Shown here one piece after another: positions 14,272 to 56,861 of a DNA stretch of 64,000 bases (its first letter is position 1; the number at the start of each line of letters is the position of its first letter). Source of the DNA: a virus (taxonomy: Duplodnaviria; Heunggongvirae; Uroviricota; Caudoviricetes). The stretch is from IMG/VR virus record IMGVR_UViG_3300028800_000057; one strand, 5' to 3'. A program made the position numbers and the translations under genes. Under the pieces are notes generated by a model, which saw only the letters and a program-made list of their open reading frames with translations, did not search any database and had not been told where the DNA came from.

Positions 14272-14631
14272 TCACCATCGAACTGTGCAGGCCTTCATAA
14301 ATAGCCCGCAACAGACAACTCCGGGAACCTGCTTCATACCTACTGGATTGGTCGCCTCGAACTCCGTCGCCGACCAATCGCTCATGCATGCAAAGAAACC
14401 ATGCCCGCGGGTCTGAATATCGGTGAAACCACTGTACCTGAGTGCACGTCGGGTATCAGCCTCGTTTGTCCAGGGCATCATCCAAAGAATGAGAATGATG
14501 ATCGATATTAGGTTGAGGAGGACTTTCATGCCCATCCGGTACACCGATATTGACGAATTATATGGAAAGTAGTTGACTGGTTTTCCAGAGTATGCGAGTA
14601 TCAACGGTGTTGGAGAAGTAGTTGACACCAA
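14272..14631 (-). CDS. Small membrane-anchored protein (start probably ATG 14530)
   Basis: Hydrophobic N-terminus; G.VCCGL.KAC motif. Confidence 0.6.
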   Translation of the reverse strand: MVSTTSPTPLILAYSGKPVNYFPYNSSISVYRMGMKVLLNLISIIILILWMMPWTNEADTRRALRYSGFTDIQTRGHGFFACMSDWSATEFEATNPVGMKQVPGVVCCGLFMKACTVRW

Positions 14632-14651
14632 TCGTCCACCGATTCTAGACT
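14622..14651 (+). promoter_or_regulatory. Sigma70-type promoter for the tracr/cas12 transcript
   Basis: TTGACA (14622)-N18-TAGACT (14646), followed by ATCAGG. Confidence 0.55.
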
Positions 14652-14656
14652 TTTAT

Positions 14657-14760
14657 CAGGGGACCTTCAACCCGTCATGTACGGGGTCCACCCCTAAAGC
14701 GAGGAACAAGTTCACTCGCTAACTGCCGAATCTTCAGTGATACGGCCCCACTTACTCGGT
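14657..14760 (+). ncRNA. Candidate tracrRNA
   Basis: CCTTCAA (14664-70) complements repeat nt 30-36; CCCCACTTACTC (14746-57) complements repeat nt 17-28 (one G:U); several stem-loops lie between them. Confidence 0.7.
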
Positions 14761-14856
14761 CAAGTCTCGATGGACGATTGGTGGCAACAACTCTACAACA
14801 TAGTGGGAATAAGCATAAAGCGAGGGTTACGACCACTCGCTGGAAAGGTAGCCTAC

Positions 14857-16596
14857 GTGGCAACCAAGAAGAAAATAGAGGAGATCAAGAAACCTGAGCT
14901 GACCGACGCTGATAAGGAGTGGGCCAGTGGGGAAGTTTACAAGCTCCTTGTAAAGTACTATCAGACGGCGGATCAACTAGGTCTGAAACCCAAGAAGCAA
15001 CCAAAAGTTTCAGTATACCTGTACTGCGGTTGTCCAATGGCCAAGTATGGAAGAGATACCCTAGGACGAATCCCTCTTGAGATCATCCAAGATCGTAACC
15101 TTGAAGGGGTCGAGGAAGCTCTGTTCAACCTTCCAGGTGCACTAACGCTCCCCATAGTATTCTCGGATCTTCCTAAGGAGGAGGCGGCCACCCTAAAGAA
15201 CCAGTTCTACGGGGTAGCCAGGACGCTCACTATGGGCCTCCAAGCCGTGTACCGACGTCGGTTCCAGGGTCCAATCGAAGGGAACTTGGAGACTGCAGCG
15301 TATCGAACCTGCAATGAAGGGATGGATGAGTATCTAGAAAGTCTAGATGACCCGCTTCTGAGGTTGATGCGGCCATCGTCAAACATAGTAGCGACTGCCA
15401 GTAAGGACTACTCCACCAGGTATGGCAACTGGGAGGCTAGAAATTCACAGGATAAGTCCCCACCATGGCCGAAGGTGACTGGGTTCCCAATCAAAACCGA
15501 CTGCTTTAGTATCGAGATCACTACCCCAGAAGCCTACCGAAAGCGTTGTCCTTCTGCCCCGGCCGAATTACCCAAAGAAATCGTCATGCTTAGTCTCAGA
15601 GTACTAGCTGGGGCGAGCAAGGGTCAACGAGTAGCACCTCTTGTTGCCCGAGTCCAAGTTCGAGGTAGCTCTGACTGGGCAACCCTCAAGAGGGCCATAA
15701 GTGGTACGAAGGGGTACAAGACAACTCAAGGTAGATTGGTTCTTGATGAAGGGAAGTGGGTGTTCAAGCTGGGGTTCAAGAAACCCCGACCCGAACCTTC
15801 AAAGGTCAAGACTGCGCTGGTAGTAATCCCGGCGCTCAATGACTTGGCGATGATTTACTCACATGAAGGTGATTACCTTCGCGGCAAGTACAAGGGGGCT
15901 GGGGAGGTCCTTCCGAAGGGGATAGACTCCTCGGGTTTCATCCACCTCAAGAAAATGTATGACTCCATGAGGTCAGCCCGAGCGCGCCACTTGAACTTCG
16001 TTGGTCGAGGTGCGAGAGGGCATGGTCAGAAGAGATTCCGACTATCACTAGAAGTAGTCGAGGGTAAAGAGACCGATAGGACCAACACCTGGATGGAGCA
16101 GCAGGCCTCCCATCTAGCCAGGTACGCCAATAGTATCGGTGCTATCGTCGGGATCGACGATATGGTTTCAGTCCCTACTGCTCCGGATCGCAAGATAGAA
16201 CGTCTCCTACGACGTTTTCCCTGGTGTACCTTCCGTGACAAGATCGCATGGGCTTGCAAGAAACATGGGGTCCCAACCAAGGTAATCAAACACTCTGGAG
16301 TCAAAGACTGCCCCATGTGCGGCGGGGAGAAGACCCTAGTTGACTCTGCTAACTATGATGGTCGTCCCGAACAGTGGTGCAGGACTGGTTGTGGAGCCGT
16401 AGCCCCAAAGAACCTATTCAGAGCCTGGAGACTGTTCAAGGTTCTTCTGGTCACTGATGCCGATAGCCTGGCGGTAGTTGATCAGGGCTTCAGAAATAAG
16501 GTTGAGGGTCTAATGCATATTCGTACACGAAACAACTCACCTGAAAGTATGAACCTTATGGGTGAACAACCTGATACCGCAGATGCAGCTGAATAG
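14857..16596 (+). CDS. cas12: Cas12f/TnpB-like type V effector with degenerate RuvC (probably nuclease-dead); about 579 aa from GTG 14857, ORF open from 14737
   Basis: KWVF.LGF, GARGHGQKR, IVGIDDM (E to D), FPW..FRDKIAWACKKHGVP, CPMCG/CRTGCG zinc finger; RuvC-I reads ALVVIPAL (no Asp), RuvC-III reads PKNLFRA (D to N); adjacent to array; SD-like GGAAAGG before GTG. Confidence 0.8.
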   Translation: MATKKKIEEIKKPELTDADKEWASGEVYKLLVKYYQTADQLGLKPKKQPKVSVYLYCGCPMAKYGRDTLGRIPLEIIQDRNLEGVEEALFNLPGALTLPIVFSDLPKEEAATLKNQFYGVARTLTMGLQAVYRRRFQGPIEGNLETAAYRTCNEGMDEYLESLDDPLLRLMRPSSNIVATASKDYSTRYGNWEARNSQDKSPPWPKVTGFPIKTDCFSIEITTPEAYRKRCPSAPAELPKEIVMLSLRVLAGASKGQRVAPLVARVQVRGSSDWATLKRAISGTKGYKTTQGRLVLDEGKWVFKLGFKKPRPEPSKVKTALVVIPALNDLAMIYSHEGDYLRGKYKGAGEVLPKGIDSSGFIHLKKMYDSMRSARARHLNFVGRGARGHGQKRFRLSLEVVEGKETDRTNTWMEQQASHLARYANSIGAIVGIDDMVSVPTAPDRKIERLLRRFPWCTFRDKIAWACKKHGVPTKVIKHSGVKDCPMCGGEKTLVDSANYDGRPEQWCRTGCGAVAPKNLFRAWRLFKVLLVTDADSLAVVDQGFRNKVEGLMHIRTRNNSPESMNLMGEQPDTADAAE

Positions 16597-16604
16597 AGGT
16601 TACA

Positions 16605-17315
16605 ATGCCAACCAAGCCCACATTTGTTGATCCTTACAAGGTCACTGGAAGTACTAAACAGATCATAACTAGGCTACTCAAACTCAAGCCGAAGGACTTT
16701 CCAGACGAAGACCAAGCTTTGGACCTAATTCGAAGGCTTAAGGCCGATGCTGATCAGGGTGAGATGCGGCTAATAGCCTATCTTACCGCCTACGAGAAAA
16801 GCGAGCTCTGGAAAAAGTCGGCAGTCCAGTGCCATACCTTCAATGGGTGGTTGAAGTACTATCAAACATCGCTCCCTGATGTGAGCAGGTATAACAACGG
16901 CAAGGAGGCCCTACTCGAGTTTGGGGTTGAAGCTTGTTTGGTCTACAGCATTCGAGCGCTGTCCAAAGTGGTTAGCCTACCAAAAGTGCATCGGCATACC
17001 TTCGTCAAGGAGGAACTTGAACCGGGAGTGGAAACCCGTAGGTTTCCACTAAGTGACGTCACCGTTGGTAGTCGTGTTAAGGAGTACCGTAAGGCTCATG
17101 GTTTAGTCAGTAATGTACCACGAAACCCGAAGAGCGACCTAGCAACTCAACTCGACGAAGCCCGGGAGAGGATCTGCCAGCTGAAAGAAGAAGTCCGAGA
17201 ACTCAAGAAAGAGCGGGACGACCTTAAAAAACGACTGGCCGAATATGACCCCCAAAACCTAATCACTAAGAAACCTGTACCACGGACCAGCAAGGTATCA
17301 AGGAAGGCCGCTTGA
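16605..17315 (+). CDS. Accessory protein co-located with cas12; DUF3102-like N-terminus plus C-terminal coiled coil
   Basis: 8 nt after cas12 stop; YL.AYE...LWK.....TF..WL motif; heptad LDEARERICQLKEEVRELKKERDDL. Confidence 0.7.
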   Translation: MPTKPTFVDPYKVTGSTKQIITRLLKLKPKDFPDEDQALDLIRRLKADADQGEMRLIAYLTAYEKSELWKKSAVQCHTFNGWLKYYQTSLPDVSRYNNGKEALLEFGVEACLVYSIRALSKVVSLPKVHRHTFVKEELEPGVETRRFPLSDVTVGSRVKEYRKAHGLVSNVPRNPKSDLATQLDEARERICQLKEEVRELKKERDDLKKRLAEYDPQNLITKKPVPRTSKVSRKAA

Positions 17316-17540
17316 TTTACGAGGGGTGAGGTGCTTAGCTTCACCCCTTACTCGCTCGCAGGACTATTCTTGAGCGAGTAAGTCCATGATCCTTGACAAA
17401 TTGAGTGCGGAAAGCGAGAAGGGTACTTACCCGTAATGGGGGCTCCTTCCCTAACATACTTGGGAATCAAAAGGTGCTTTTAGTACCCTCTCGCAAGAAG
17501 CATGTGAAGTGGTGGAATTGATTGATTACTGCAGTAACGT

Positions 17541-18834
17541 GTGTTGATCCGATTATGAGTAGGTGGGGTTTGAAGGACTGTCGACGCAGAGAAGCGTGCT
17601 CAACGCATTCGTAGGTGTTGATCCGATTATGAGTAGGTGGGGTTTGAAGGGAGTTGCTCGTCAGTCCCTTCTGGGAGGGCTAGGCGGGGTGTTGATCCGA
17701 TTATGAGTAGGTGGGGTTTGAAGGTGACTCGCTGCTATTCCCGGTCGTCTCGGCACTTGGCGGTGTTGATCCGATTATGAGTAGGTGGGGTTTGAAGGGG
17801 CGAGGACGACAACGACGTTATGTCGTTGATCTCGAGTGTTGATCCGATTATGAGTAGGTGGGGTTTGAAGGTCTGAACTCGGTTGGGACTCGGTCAGGTA
17901 CTTGGTCAGTGTTGATCCGATTATGAGTAGGTGGGGTTTGAAGGCAGGTCATCAGAGTCCAGGTGTTGATCCGATTATGAGTAGGTGGGGTTTGAAGGAA
18001 TCCGACAAGCGGCCTCGCCGTAGACCTCACTTACGGTGTTGATCCGATTATGAGTAGGTGGGGTTTGAAGGTTCGATTTTGAGGCCGTCAATCTTGGCTA
18101 GCGCGTTGTGTTGATCCGATTATGAGTAGGTGGTTCTTGAAGGGATCAAGCCCGATGAAGGTGTTACGCCGGGCATGAACGTGTTGATCCGATTCTGAGT
18201 AGGTGGTGCTTGAAGGGCCGTTAGCTAGCCCCATCGCATAGTGACTAGGGTTGTGTTGATCCGATTATGAGTAGGTGGGGTTTGAAGGGTTATGTCAGCC
18301 ACACGCCAACGTGGCCCGTTCTCGCGTGTTGATCCGATTATGAGTAGGTGGGGTTTGAAGGATTCGGCAAAGGGAGGAAAAGGGGGCCGGATTTCGCGTG
18401 TTGATCCGATTATGAGTAGGTGGGGTTTGAAGGGGCTCACGAGCATTAGGATGTCGGCGCGGGTGGGATTGTGTTGATCCGATTCTGAGTAGGTGGTTCT
18501 TGAAGGTCGCCTCGCTTGGCATAGTCAATTTTCGCCAATAGGTGTTGATTCGATTCTGAGTAGGTGGGGTTTGAAGGCAATCTATCGATTGGAACCATTG
18601 CTAGTCGACTTCTTGTGTTGATCCGATTATGAGTAGGTGGTTCTTGAAGGTTCGTCGGAGAGTTCGAGCACAACGGCCCAAATGCGTGGTTGATCCTATT
18701 CTGAGTAGGTGGTGCTTGAAGGATGCATTGACTACGACCAGCAACCCGCAATAGCCAAGTTCTGACCCCATTATCAGTAGGTGGGGTTTGAAGGGCCAGG
18801 TGTTGATCTGATTCTGAGTAGGTGGTATTGAAGG
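17541..18834 (+). CRISPR. CRISPR array, 19 repeats / 18 spacers; repeat GTGTTGATCCGATTATGAGTAGGTGGGGTTTGAAGG (36 nt)
   Basis: Repeats 1-8 identical; degeneration from 18108 onward places the leader on the cas12 side; spacers 35-38 nt except one of 18 nt and one of 5 nt. Confidence 0.98.
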
Positions 18835-34334: not shown

Positions 34335-34408
34335 ACTTGGAATGTACCACACGGAAAGTGGCGGGCCTTCCAGCCAGCCTCCCACTTTCCGTGTGGTACA
34401 TTCCAAGT
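34335..34408. repeat. Perfect 27-bp inverted repeat with extra GGAAAGTGGC copies
   Basis: ACTTGGAATGTACCACACGGAAAGTGG-N20-CCACTTTCCGTGTGGTACATTCCAAGT; related copies near 34264 and 34418. Confidence 0.9.
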
Positions 34409-34911
34409 GTGGTACACGGAAAGTGGCAGGCTGAACAGACGGACAACCGCCGCAAATACCAAACCCACCCGGCCCAATTTTCCTAAATAACTACACACAC
34501 TATAATACCACACAATTCACGGTGCTTCGCACAAGTGACCTGTGATGGATTACACACCTACCTGCAGCCCCCACACACAGTTGTCTTGCAATTCATGTGA
34601 GTTCAGTGCAGCACCATTCACATTCACAGTGAATCACACAAGGAAGTGACACTGCGCCTCTGGCGCCTTGTGATTCACTGTGTAAAGTGTTGAGGTAGGA
34701 TAGTCACACCAGAACTAGGCGCGGAGCGCCGGGTTAGGGTTGGATATGTAGGCAGAGTATCGGTTCGTGACGATACCGCTCTGAAGTATTGTCCAAACCA
34801 CATGTAGTTATCGGTGACGTTCGTGCCCGTAAAAGTATGAACAGATACTATGCCTACATCAGAAGTATCAATTCTTGTTGAGATCAGAGCGAGTGGTGCG
34901 TAATAGGAGGC

Positions 34912-50969: not shown

Positions 50970-51038
50970 GGGTGGTACACTACCACCGGGTTTACAAGAA
51001 GGACACTTCTTTTGATCTATTGATAACTGCGGGTACGT

Positions 51039-52526
51039 ATGTCTGCTGATCTGATTCAGAGAGTAGGGCTTTGCCTCAAAAGGGTTGACTTTTGAATAAG
51101 TTCTATTACGCTGGAATCAGGTCTCATTCCTTCGACCAAAAGCGAGGGTTACGACCACTCGCTAAAGCCTCCGGTTAGGAGGGTCTCATACTTTTGAGGC
51201 AAAGAGAGAGTAGCGTCAAGATTCATCGAGGCATCAGCGCCTATCTCCGTAAAGGAAGTTGACGGAAGGATTGAAGTCTCTGGGCCTTATGACAAGATGA
51301 AGGACTTGATCCCTTACCTACGTGGGAAATTCGAGTATCGCGGTCATGACCACACTTGGTGGGAATCCAAAGCGAAAATGACCCCTCTGAAGATTAAGAA
51401 TCTTCAGAAGAAGGTTGATGCGGTCAATGGGAAATTTGGCCCCAACCCTGTGAAGGTGGAAGAGCCAGCGGATGCTAAGGCGGTCAGGATTGAGGAAGCC
51501 AAAAAGCTGCTCAGTAAAGCGATCCATATACGGGTTACTGGATTGATCTTTAGTCCCATCGGGGTCGATGGTGCTCAATTGACAGGAGCTCTTACTGATC
51601 TGAGGGTGTTGATTAACATGTCTGGTGGGGATTATGGCCCAGAGTTCTCGAAGTTCTATGTGCAGAATATCAAACCAGTAGAGTTTAGTAAGCTCCTGGA
51701 CGCGATTGAGGACCAGGGTAGGCTTGTGGCCAAGTCCCTTGCTGATCTGTCTAGTATAATTCCGCGCAAGTTCCCGAGCTTGCAGATTAACGTGGGGACC
51801 AATAACGGGAGCTACTTGTTCGTAGTCTCTGGAAAGACCTATGACTTCAAGGATGATATCAAAAAGCTGGTACCGGTAACATTCAATGGTCAAGGGAGTT
51901 TCTGGTGGGCTCCAGTCCATCAGGTTAAGGAAGCTCAAGTAAAGAAGCTAATTGAGTATCTCGAGAGTGAAGAGCGGGCGAGAGCTGAGAAATGGAAGGC
52001 TGAAAAGGTGGAGAGGACACCTACCGAGAAAGCGAAGAGGCCTAATCGTAGAGGGGATCATTGCTTAAACTGCGGGGCGTGGGTAGATGCTGGTGATGGT
52101 TACTTAGTAGACCATTGGGACAATGATGAGGACGAGCTAGTCTATAAGGTGGTTCACTCTGATCCTAGTGTCTGCGCTGAAGTCAAAGAGGCGGCCAGAA
52201 TACGCCGTGAAAAGGCTAATACGAAGCGTGAGGCTCAGGGAAACTTGTATAAGCTTTGTGCAAAGTCAGAGTACTATGTACAAGGTACAGGACATCGACC
52301 CCCAGGTGAGCAGATCTGGATTGACAAGACTGCACTCGGATATGGGGGTGGGACGTGGGTAGTTATTGAACCCGGTGATAACTACTTCTGGTATGTCAAG
52401 AATAACGGGGCTGACGGGGACGATTGGTCCAACAACAATGTCTCGACAGGTGGTGCTGGGGCCATTGGATATCGACTTCCGATGACAGAAGAAGCGCGCG
52501 TTCTCATTGACGTGGCAAAGGAGTAG
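51039..52526 (+). CDS. Gene split by a 147-bp insertion; restored product about 446 aa (MSADLIQRVASRFIEAS...), downstream part annotated from 51297
   Basis: Removing 51067-51213 fuses ATG 51039 in frame with the 51297-52526 ORF. Confidence 0.75.
51067..51204. mobile_element. 138-bp MITE-like insertion
   Basis: 14-bp TIRs CTTTGCCTCAAAAG (51069-82) / CTTTTGAGGCAAAG (51191-204); 9-bp direct repeat AGAGAGTAG (51058-66, 51205-13). Confidence 0.85.
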
Positions 52527-54190: not shown

Positions 54191-54239
54191 AATTCCACTA
54201 ATTAGACACATGATCATCATGTGTCTAATTAGTGGAATT
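54191..54239. repeat. Perfect 49-bp palindrome (24-bp arms, 1-nt centre)
   Basis: AATTCCACTAATTAGACACATGAT-C-ATCATGTGTCTAATTAGTGGAATT. Confidence 0.92.
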
Positions 54240-55106: not shown

Positions 55107-55252
55107 CCTAGAGTATCGTCTGGAGCGCTCGGAGCTGAATGGTTTTGCATAGCTACTGAGGCCGTGTGGCTGCTGATGGTTAGGGATAGGCCAGCACCGT
55201 AGTGCAATGCGGAGCTGGCCGTTTCTCTTTACTTGGCAATGCTCCTAAGTGG

Positions 55253-55392
55253 TTGATTTTGTAAGTTGGGTGAGTTATGATCTCATTGAATCAGGATACA
55301 TTCTTGATTTATTGGTTTTGTTCTTTCGACCAAAAGCGAGGATTATGATCACTCGCTAATGTCCCAGGTTAGGGAGTCCTTTTAGGGCAAAG
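55253..55392 (+). ncRNA. Promoter plus tracr-like structured RNA homologous to 51085-51204
   Basis: TTGATT-N17-TATGAT, GAATCAGG, TTCGACCAAAAGCGAGG-attatgatc-ACTCGCTAA, GGTTAGG loop, GGCAAAGAG. Confidence 0.6.
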
Positions 55393-55394
55393 AG

Positions 55395-55775: not shown

Positions 55776-56861
55776 ACCATCGGCAACAATTTGTTAGGCT
55801 CTACACCTAAAACCTAACCATATCGAGGGGCTGGGATTCTGCACCCTTACCGTATGAGTGAACCGGTTATGCCAGAGTCTTGTCCTGTTTTGGTCTATTG
55901 TTCAGGATTCCCCTAGTATCTACACCTTGTACTCAATACTTTGCAAGTGCATTCAACTGAATATCTGGGATAGTTGACAATTGACGACTACCCTAGTATC
56001 AGAATAAGCTATGTACCAAGAGGATCTTATCCATGTAGTATCTGTGCTTCTGTCTCTATGCGGACCTGAGGCTGGATATCTTGAGTACAAGGAAGGCTCT
56101 GTAGAAGATCCTGGGGGTGAGTTTGATGAAGCGCTGGCGCTTGGATGGGTTGTGAAGGAGAGCGAGGGCGGGCCTTGGTGGAGGATCAATGTGTCACCGA
56201 AGGGCACTGAGTTGGTAGAACAGATCTTCAAGGCAACCGGTGTCGAGATAACTCAATGAAGTTCCCATGGTTTCATAGGCCCAAGAAACTGAGCTTAGTC
56301 GATTCTCAGCTCAAGAGGTTGTACTCTAACACCGCTCGAACCTTTGGGTTGCGCGGGCGTGCACTCACGGTCTCAGTCAAGGCTCAGATGGGTTTTCCCT
56401 ATCACACGGAGCAAGAGTTCCTTGAGAGGATTGCGATCCTCATTCATGCTCTCGTATTAGAGGGTAACCTTGACGAGGCGGTAGCTGAACTTAGGAAGCT
56501 TCGGGATACTCCGCTCCACCATGATCAGTGATTATGATCTCGAAGTCATCTGTCAGAAGGTACTTGCCGCTGACGAGAACCGATTCACGATTGTGCTACA
56601 TAAGCACGGCAAGTCGGTTCTAGGCCACCTGGTTGGTAAGGTATCGATGATGGTCCCGAAGTCAGAATTGTCGAAGGATCTTCTTCTCCGCGCCCATCAG
56701 ATGTTGGCTAAGTTGTTGGATACACCCAGTAATTAGCACTCACACTGGTATGGGTTCCCAGGTATCGGGGCGCATACTAAGGGGAAACCCTAGAAAAGGT
56801 GTTCCATAAATCGATTTATCAAGAAAAAGATGTTGAGATCTGACACCGGTGGCGCGTAATA

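What the first reader, a model, noticed from the sequence alone, without database searches (positions are those of the whole stretch)
51039..51297. Mini-element with TIRs and 9-bp duplication cleanly splits a gene
Seen: ATG 51039 reads MSADLIQRV, then enters the insert and stops at TGA 51093. After the second AGAGAGTAG the frame resumes ASRFIEASAPISVKEVDGRIEVSGPYDK-MKDLIP. Removing 147 bp restores a ~446-aa ORF. The insert has perfect 14-bp TIRs and carries the promoter and the tracr-like hairpin. Inference: a non-autonomous mobile cassette spreading a Cas-binding RNA motif. The TIR stem would juxtapose the duplicated codons, so excision, splicing or ribosomal bypass could restore expression.
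Basis: partly seen in the sequence, partly recalled or inferred. Interest (0 to 1): 0.8.

Follow-up and report, generated by a model that had tools for sequence, protein, structure and literature searches.

The report
Mini-transposon carrying a CRISPR-like guide RNA
A 140-base jumping element has recently broken a gene of a huge soil phage; it belongs to a small family that always lands right next to the same three letters and carries a compact relative of the helper RNA of the phage's non-cutting CRISPR protein, which suggests (unproven) that each copy turns its neighbouring DNA into a guide.

Summary
The insertion is real: a 90%-identical phage has the empty allele (MSADLIQRVASRF), and most close homologues start with this extension. 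The element is 140 bp (51067-51206), not 138. It is a gene-less MITE whose left end (GGCTTTGC) and 9-bp duplication match IS903-like SWIM-DDE transposons. I found 13 copies in related jumbo phages. All 13, plus one read-derived flank, have YTC immediately 5' of the duplication, on one side only (background 3.8%); autonomous IS903-like relatives do not (0/8). The 3' 97 nt form a covarying RNA, colinear with the tracr-like RNA of the phage's nuclease-dead Cas12f, and end exactly at the right end, the TnpB omegaRNA layout. Best reading: a TAM-locked MITE encoding a single-guide RNA whose guide is the flank (about 0.45); a passenger or decoy tracr with a transposase-set target bias remains open. 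The mobilising transposase and RNA expression are not shown. Splicing or ribosomal bypass is not supported (TIR stem probability 0.002; a second in-frame stop). The scan noted two more probable copies and a SWIM-DDE transposase elsewhere in this genome; those notes are unchecked.

The parts
51039..51066 (+). First nine codons (MSADLIQRV) of the interrupted phage gene
   Evidence: Same start in empty allele L001 and P0025; RVAxRF-type N-termini in most homologues
51055..51057 (+). TTC, target-adjacent motif (candidate TAM/PAM), directly 5' of the TSD
   Evidence: YTC at this position in 13/13 copies plus one read-derived flank; empty allele L001 has TCC
51058..51066 (+). Left copy of the 9-bp target-site duplication
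   Evidence: Single copy in the empty allele; 9-bp TSD in 8 other copies
51067..51206 (+). The MITE, 140 bp, no ORF
   Evidence: L037 copy with 1 difference, L086 copy identical; 140-nt Logan contig at about 3x depth
51067..51082 (+). Left end / TIR, starts GGCTTTGC like IS903-group SWIM-DDE transposons
51085..51112 (+). Putative sigma-70-type promoter (TTGACT, 16 nt, TACGCT) firing towards the right end
   Evidence: -35 conserved 13/13, TAnnnT -10 in 8/13; below threshold in the generic scan; inferred
51118..51206 (+). Structured RNA scaffold: P1 51120-37, bulged hairpin P2 51141-63, P3 51168-82, and a P1 segment (51121-32) that can pair with the last 12 nt of the element
   Evidence: model built on it hits the tracr-like RNA of five dCas12f loci
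51191..51206 (-). Right end / TIR; its two terminal bases depart from the left end (AG in 12/13 copies, AT in one)
51207..51213 (+). Remnant (7 nt) of the right TSD; start of the putative flank-derived guide
   Evidence: guide role inferred
51207..52526 (+). Rest of the interrupted gene, still an open frame (called from ATG 51297 as 409 aa); function unknown
   Evidence: 395/439 residues identical to L001, no stops; no Pfam family
55235..55394 (+). Second, diverged copy (160 bp); TTC+9 nt on the left, right flank does not match
14651..14766 (+). tracr-like RNA upstream of the dead Cas12f, colinear homologue of the MITE RNA
   Evidence: CM hit E 5.5e-4; two anti-repeat segments read from the sequence
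14817..14841 (+). Hairpin copy identical over 25 nt to the MITE's P2, in front of the cas start codon
14857..16596 (+). Cas12f-like protein lacking the RuvC catalytic residues; candidate partner of the MITE RNA
16605..17315 (+). Conserved partner gene of the dead Cas12f (unknown function, coiled-coil C-terminus)
17541..18830 (+). CRISPR array, 36-nt repeat ending TTGAAGG

Best explanation
The insert is a non-autonomous cut-and-paste element (MITE) of the IS903 group, moved in trans by a SWIM-DDE transposase. Shown: boundaries, TSD, empty allele, multi-copy family, end similarity. Inferred: which transposase. It carries an outward promoter and an RNA homologous along its whole length to the tracrRNA of the phage's nuclease-dead Cas12f, but closed in cis: the P1 pyrimidine segment pairs with the element's last bases where the tracr pairs with the CRISPR repeat end (homology shown; pairing predicted). 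Read-through into the flank makes a single-guide RNA whose guide starts at the TSD, and every copy sits behind YTC, so the empty site is a PAM-flanked target and the filled site keeps only a 9-nt seed match (geometry shown; loading on Cas inferred). With a dead nuclease the likely effect is binding, not cutting: blocking the empty allele of co-infecting sister phages, or covering the element's own left junction and promoter. That would keep TAM-adjacent copies in the population (inferred). At this locus the element simply disrupts a non-essential gene; nothing repairs the mRNA. This copy has lost 2 nt, which puts its guide out of register with the TTC.
For: Empty allele and homologue N-termini. 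9-bp TSD in 8 of 13 copies. Ends GGCTTTGC and 9-bp TSD in SWIM-DDE transposons; IS903B ends start GGCTTTG, 9-bp DR (PMC10569121). YTC 13/13, one-sided, background 3.8%; 0/8 left and 0/5 right flanks of autonomous relatives. RNA: 95.6-97% of cells paired, 4-5 pairs with compensatory change, slid controls 38-52%. A model of the MITE RNA hits the tracr-like RNAs at E 1e-6 to 0.05 in all five dCas loci, and among non-element sequence little else below E 0.4. The right end departs from the TIR exactly at the two bases that pair with P1. The one protospacer found for this Cas family has TTT 5' of it. Three of the four long contigs holding copies also hold this cas locus.
Against: No transcript data. 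No autonomous parent found, and no DDE transposase in the three related phage fragments. The PAM rests on a single match and is TTT, not TTC. The protein is dead, so classical homing cannot explain the spread. IS903 itself reads bases next to the TSD (WTTYA-N9-TRAAW, PMC2577343 Table 1), so a transposase could set the bias. The terminal helix has no compensatory change and has a mismatch in this very copy. Two alternative pairings of P1 with the 3' end cross each other. Only 10 related sequences were aligned, so covariation counts are inflated by kinship.
Confidence: 0.45

Rival explanations
1. Ordinary IS903-group MITE that picked up the tracr sequence as a passenger or as a decoy that titrates the dead Cas12f; YTC is the target half-site of an asymmetric transposase and has nothing to do with guides.
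For: IS903 has a sequence preference directly beside the 9-bp TSD. The MITE's two ends differ at the terminal bases and YTC lies at the strand cut joined to the odd end. P2 also stands alone before the cas start codon. The P1 segment could pair with the CRISPR repeat end in trans (-6.8 kcal/mol).
Against: IS903's motif is palindromic and autonomous SWIM-DDE relatives show no YTC. The RNA ends exactly at the element end, with conserved complementarity to it, which a passenger would not need.
Confidence: 0.27
2. The RNA is the omegaRNA of an active TnpB/Cas12f encoded by an unseen autonomous IS903-TnpB parent; empty alleles are cut and copies spread by homing between co-infecting phages. The CRISPR tracr would be a split descendant of the same RNA.
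For: TAM plus flank-guide geometry is that of homing TnpB elements; PATEs encode omegaRNAs used in trans (bioRxiv 2023.03.14.532601); TnpBs in TIR-bounded DDE transposons are known (PMC10691335).
Against: None of the closest homologues inspected keeps the RuvC-I aspartate, and the three whose contexts were read have no transposase nearby. The model finds no such RNA beside the intact TnpBs of G002/G003.
Confidence: 0.13
3. The dead Cas12f physically steers the transposase: PAM scanning by the Cas-RNA complex places insertions directly behind TTC, a CAST-like partnership with an IS903-type enzyme.
For: Strict one-sided motif at a fixed distance; the protein lacks the catalytic residues, as Cas12k does; MITEs and the cas locus share genomes.
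Against: No transposase gene beside any dCas locus read. In V-K CASTs insertion lies about 60 bp from the PAM (own knowledge), not inside the R-loop. No spacer matches any insertion site in the sequences held.
Confidence: 0.12
4. One reading: the insert is removed or skipped at the RNA level (splicing or ribosomal bypass), restoring the full-length protein.
For: Net insert 147 bp is in frame; downstream ORF is intact.
Against: In-frame by a 1-in-3 chance and through a 2-nt loss particular to this copy. TIR stem not formed. Two TGA stops, and TGA is the commonest stop of long ORFs here. No intron family. The insertion is recent (copies 0-1 differences), so an intact ORF is expected anyway.
Confidence: 0.03

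Closest known systems
IS903 group (IS5 family) insertion sequences and their MITEs, including SWIM-DDE cargo transposons
   Same: Left end GGCTTTG(C), short TIRs, 9-bp TSD, sequence preference directly beside the TSD
   Different: No transposase; right end departs at the two terminal bases; target motif is one-sided YTC instead of palindromic WTTYA-N9-TRAAW; carries a promoter and a structured RNA
PATE-like non-autonomous IS200/IS605 elements that encode omegaRNAs (Meers et al., bioRxiv 2023.03.14.532601)
   Same: Gene-less element, RNA scaffold ending at the right end, flank as guide, motif 5' of the target
   Different: PATEs have hairpin ends, no TIR and no TSD and move by Y1 TnpA; their RNA serves active TnpB, whereas the only homologous RNA found here belongs to a nuclease-dead CRISPR-associated Cas12f
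DDE-associated TnpB elements, DDE-1 to DDE-6 (Altae-Tran et al. 2023, PMC10691335) and Fanzor1 transposons
   Same: TIR-bounded, TSD-making transposons linked to an RNA-guided protein family
   Different: No tnpB inside. In Fanzors the 5' TSD is part of the TAM and the 3' TSD is in the scaffold (PMC13565253); here the motif lies outside a variable 9-bp TSD that would be the first 9 nt of the guide
tracrRNA:crRNA of type V-F Cas12f; omegaRNAs re-formed from tracr plus half-repeat in RpoE-associated dCas12f (PMC10691335; PMC13472631)
   Same: Dead Cas12f-fold protein; tracr-related single RNA with scaffold plus guide
   Different: Those RNAs sit beside their gene and are not reported as mobile; here the RNA rides a MITE 36-40 kb away, its 3' end does not resemble the CRISPR repeat, and there is no sigma factor gene
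T4 gene 60 ribosomal bypass, IStrons and group I introns
   Same: Non-coding insert inside a phage ORF, net in frame
   Different: No stop directly after the duplicated codons, matched TTT landing codon followed by a stop, no intron fold, no enclosing stem

Membership tests
MITE / non-autonomous DDE element | Short, no coding capacity, terminal inverted repeats | tested here: met
   140 bp, 14-bp perfect arms, terminal 2 bp mismatched
MITE / non-autonomous DDE element | Target-site duplication and an empty-site allele | tested here: met
   9-bp TSD in 8/13 copies, 7 nt left at this site; empty allele L001
MITE / non-autonomous DDE element | Several dispersed copies | tested here: met
   13 loci; about 3 near-identical copies in one phage population
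IS903 group (IS5 family) | Ends beginning GGCTTTG | tested here: inconclusive
   Left end matches in this and most copies; right end reads CTCTTTG
IS903 group (IS5 family) | 9-bp TSD | tested here: met
IS903 group (IS5 family) | Cognate IS903-type transposase in an element with the same ends | tested here: inconclusive
   No parent found; relatives share only the first 8 nt of the end; a SWIM-DDE gene in this genome is known only from an unchecked note
IS903 group (IS5 family) | Palindromic target motif WTTYA-N9-TRAAW | tested here: not met
   One-sided YTC; no motif 3' of the TSD
omegaRNA-encoding non-autonomous element (PATE type) | IS200/IS605 hairpin ends, no TIR, no TSD | tested here: not met
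   TIR and TSD present
omegaRNA-encoding non-autonomous element (PATE type) | Structured scaffold whose 3' end coincides with the element end | tested here: met
   (prediction; terminal helix conserved but not covarying)
omegaRNA-encoding non-autonomous element (PATE type) | Conserved motif immediately 5' of the guide-matching target | tested here: met
   YTC 13/13
omegaRNA-encoding non-autonomous element (PATE type) | RNA expressed and loaded on a cognate TnpB/Cas12 that recognises the motif | not testable with these tools
   No RNA run listed; single PAM datum TTT
omegaRNA-encoding non-autonomous element (PATE type) | Catalytically active cognate nuclease | tested here: not met
   The only protein family with a homologous RNA lacks the RuvC catalytic residues
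Self-splicing intron or bypass element | Intron fold, or take-off codon plus stop plus hairpin plus open landing site | tested here: not met
Type V-U24 (for the partner Cas) | Placement in the V-U24 clade of Altae-Tran et al. 2023 | not tested
   Name taken from scan note e1-5432669; the paper only confirms that V-U24 has altered catalytic sites

The most novel reading that the evidence does not exclude
An IS903-type MITE family has taken over the guide-RNA scaffold of a nuclease-dead phage CRISPR-Cas12f and uses that protein in trans, either to steer insertion next to its PAM or to bind and silence empty alleles of competing phages. Each insertion would write a new guide from its own target site without Cas1-Cas2.
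Probability: 0.35. Interest if true: 0.88.

Novelty: new variant of a known kind. Interest (0 to 1): 0.68.

Why it matters
If the RNA is loaded on the dead Cas12f, this is a natural single-guide RNA for an unstudied phage Cas12f family and a direct prediction of its PAM (YTC/TTN). It would be a DDE-type mobile element that depends on a CRISPR effector it does not encode. It also offers a living pair, cis-closed scaffold against split tracr plus repeat, for the question of how omegaRNAs and type V CRISPR RNAs interconvert. A strict one-sided target motif for a 9-bp-TSD transposon is itself unusual and testable. If the RNA is only a passenger, the finding is an ordinary MITE insertion with a curious cargo.

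Tried and rejected
Splicing and bypass: rejected. TGA recoding: rejected, TGA ends 13 of 30 long ORFs. IS1595 (ISPna2-like GGCnnTG ends): considered and dropped, TSD is 9 not 8 and no PF12762 in G001-G004. Search for an autonomous parent: none in viral contigs, JGI metagenomes, GTDB (L044 is a chance match, not scored by the model), GenBank phages or plasmids. No DDE_Tnp_1, DDE_Tnp_1_5 or SWIM-DDE gene in G001-G004 (these are fragments; the G003 SWIM hit is a 94-aa solo protein). Intact IS605/IS607-type TnpBs in G002/G003 have no model hit beside them. Spacer searches gave one perfect protospacer and none at insertion sites. No RNA holder listed. Contigs of four runs showed no joint across the insert, which proves nothing about rare excision. 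Function of the interrupted protein: no Pfam hit, Atlas scores under 0.8. A link between the element and presence of the cas locus could not be tested: the empty-allele phage G001 carries a distant paralogous locus. The window's own genome was not available. Literature searches found no paper on a MITE carrying a tracrRNA, within a library that lacks most subscription papers.

Full report
Observation. The window is part of a jumbo phage (longest contig 443 kb; rhizosphere runs). ATG 51039 reads MSADLIQRV, enters the insert and stops at TGA 51093; a second in-frame TGA lies at 51195. The insertion is real.

Boundaries. L037 holds a copy that differs at one base, at another site, with a clean 9-bp duplication; it shows that the element runs from GG to ...AAAGAG, 140 bp. 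A Logan contig of exactly 51067-51206 at depth 25 against about 8 on the flanks gives the same limits and about three near-identical copies in that population. In the window only 7 nt of the right duplicate remain, most simply through loss of one AG in the AG run. The in-frame 147 bp is therefore particular to this copy; other copies are 160-198 bp.

Family. Pattern and covariance-model searches gave 13 loci, all in related phage-like contigs. Eight have a 9-bp TSD (seven perfect, one 8/9). Four have unmatched right flanks, by rearrangement or chimeric assembly; L086 joins another copy's left flank to this gene. No copy holds an ORF and no longer parent was found.

Transposon class. A scan note mentions a SWIM-DDE transposase 71 kb before the window, and other notes call such enzymes IS903-like. 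I tested the class on relatives. SWIM plus DDE_Tnp_1 transposons have ends that start GGCTTTGC on both sides, and 9-bp TSDs in all five resolved cases; IS903B ends start GGCTTTG with a 9-bp repeat (PMC10569121). The MITE's left end shares these 8 nt; its right end differs in the last two bases. It works like an IS903-group MITE, but the enzyme that moves it is not identified.

Target motif. All 13 copies have YTC (12 TTC, 1 CTC) directly 5' of the left TSD; a further flank from contigs also has CTC. Background is 3.8%. Nothing is conserved on the other side. IS903's motif is palindromic (PMC2577343), and the autonomous relatives show YTC at 0 of 8 left and 0 of 5 right flanks. The empty allele L001 has TCC there.

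RNA. A -35 hexamer is kept in 13/13 copies and a TAnnnT -10 in 8/13; here it is weak and missed by the generic scan. The last 97 nt are conserved and fold into three stems with compensatory changes. A segment of the first stem and its loop is complementary to the last 12 nt of the element in two crossing registers, 95-100% paired; the terminal register includes the two bases where the right end leaves the TIR. These counts come from ten related sequences and are support, not proof. A model built only on the MITEs finds the tracr-like RNA upstream of the Cas12f-like gene in all five loci held (E 1e-6 to 0.05), colinear from end to end. In the tracr the same segment is complementary to the end of the CRISPR repeat. 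So the MITE RNA looks like the cis-closed, single-guide form of that tracr, ending where a guide would begin.

Partner protein. 14857-16596 folds like Cas12f. All three RuvC motifs are degenerate in its close family and none of the closest homologues inspected has the RuvC-I aspartate. It is followed by a conserved 200-245-aa gene and an array, never by a transposase in the loci read. One spacer of the G002 system matches a sister phage perfectly with TTT 5' of it, compatible with a TTN PAM but a single datum.

Mechanism. The layout, motif then target then a scaffold ending at the right end, is that of TnpB elements and their gene-less PATE derivatives (bioRxiv 2023.03.14.532601), moved onto a TIR/TSD transposon. 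TnpB-DDE pairings are known (PMC10691335) but described as rare in prokaryotes (PMC13565253). I think it most likely (0.45) that the RNA is loaded on the dead Cas12f and guides binding to TTC plus flank: fully on empty alleles of co-infecting phages, by a 9-nt seed on its own left junction next to its promoter. Rivals are a passenger or decoy tracr with a transposase-set bias (0.27), an unseen active TnpB parent (0.13), and direct steering of the transposase by Cas (0.12). Expression, binding and any advantage are inferred, not shown. In this copy the 2-nt loss puts the guide out of register with the TTC, so it may be a defective member.

Fate of the host gene. The TIR stem has probability 0.002 in the transcript because the left arm folds locally. 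The only matched codon pair for a hop, TTT, is followed by TGA at both places. TGA is a true stop here and Rfam finds nothing. The downstream frame is intact, as expected of a recent insertion. All seven places listed for the 409-aa protein carry the element's right end as far as they reach. The gene is most likely disrupted or reduced to a poorly translated N-terminally shortened product; ATG 51297 has no clear ribosome-binding site.

Verdict. Real, recent MITE insertion; the restoration-of-expression idea fails; the family's strict one-sided target motif and its tracr-homologous RNA are the interesting part. New variant of a known kind, interest 0.68.

Noticed in passing
window 14617-14650 and 14759-14792: The tracr-like RNA is enclosed by a 34-bp imperfect inverted repeat, kept with changed sequence in G002, L084, L085 and L094; many mismatches are G-U type, suggesting an RNA closing stem.
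   Followed up: partly
window 17320-17500: Structured spacer between the partner gene and the array, with a long stem opening with the same GCGAG...CTCGC motif as the tracr hairpin; conserved in all loci read.
   Followed up: no
L086:1271-1410 and L088: Element joined to another copy's left flank and this gene's right flank: either an assembly chimera or an inversion of about 75 kb between two inverted copies.
   Followed up: partly
window 13489-63530: At least 18 copies of a phage promoter motif TTGAGA-N16-18-CGTAAT before small genes.
   Followed up: no
window 51009-51021 and 55887-55899: Motif CTTTTGATCTATT upstream of the interrupted gene, conserved in L001 while the flanking DNA differs; possible late promoter.
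   Followed up: no
L080:7666-11200 (G001): A second, 27%-identical dead Cas12f locus with partner gene, a variant of the same hairpin upstream and a different CRISPR repeat.
   Followed up: partly
L071:7669-9639 (G003): Cas12m-like gene next to a CRISPR array in a phage fragment that carries a MITE copy (family assignment from memory).
   Followed up: no
L045 spacer 8 against L014:11059 and L042: The dead-Cas12f array of one phage targets a related phage that also carries the MITE, with TTT 5' of the protospacer.
   Followed up: partly
G001, G002, G003 ORF starts: Several unrelated proteins start with an RVAxR(F/Y/W)-like segment, as the interrupted gene does; possible shared N-terminal tag.
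   Followed up: partly
window 34335-34433 and 54191-54239: Long near-perfect inverted repeats (32 and 24 bp) unrelated to the MITE.
   Followed up: no
L137:8302-12709, L141, L143, L148, L150: SWIM-DDE cargo transposons of 4-6 kb in viral and bacterial contigs, three with methyltransferase cargo, GGCTTTGC ends and 9-bp TSD.
   Followed up: partly
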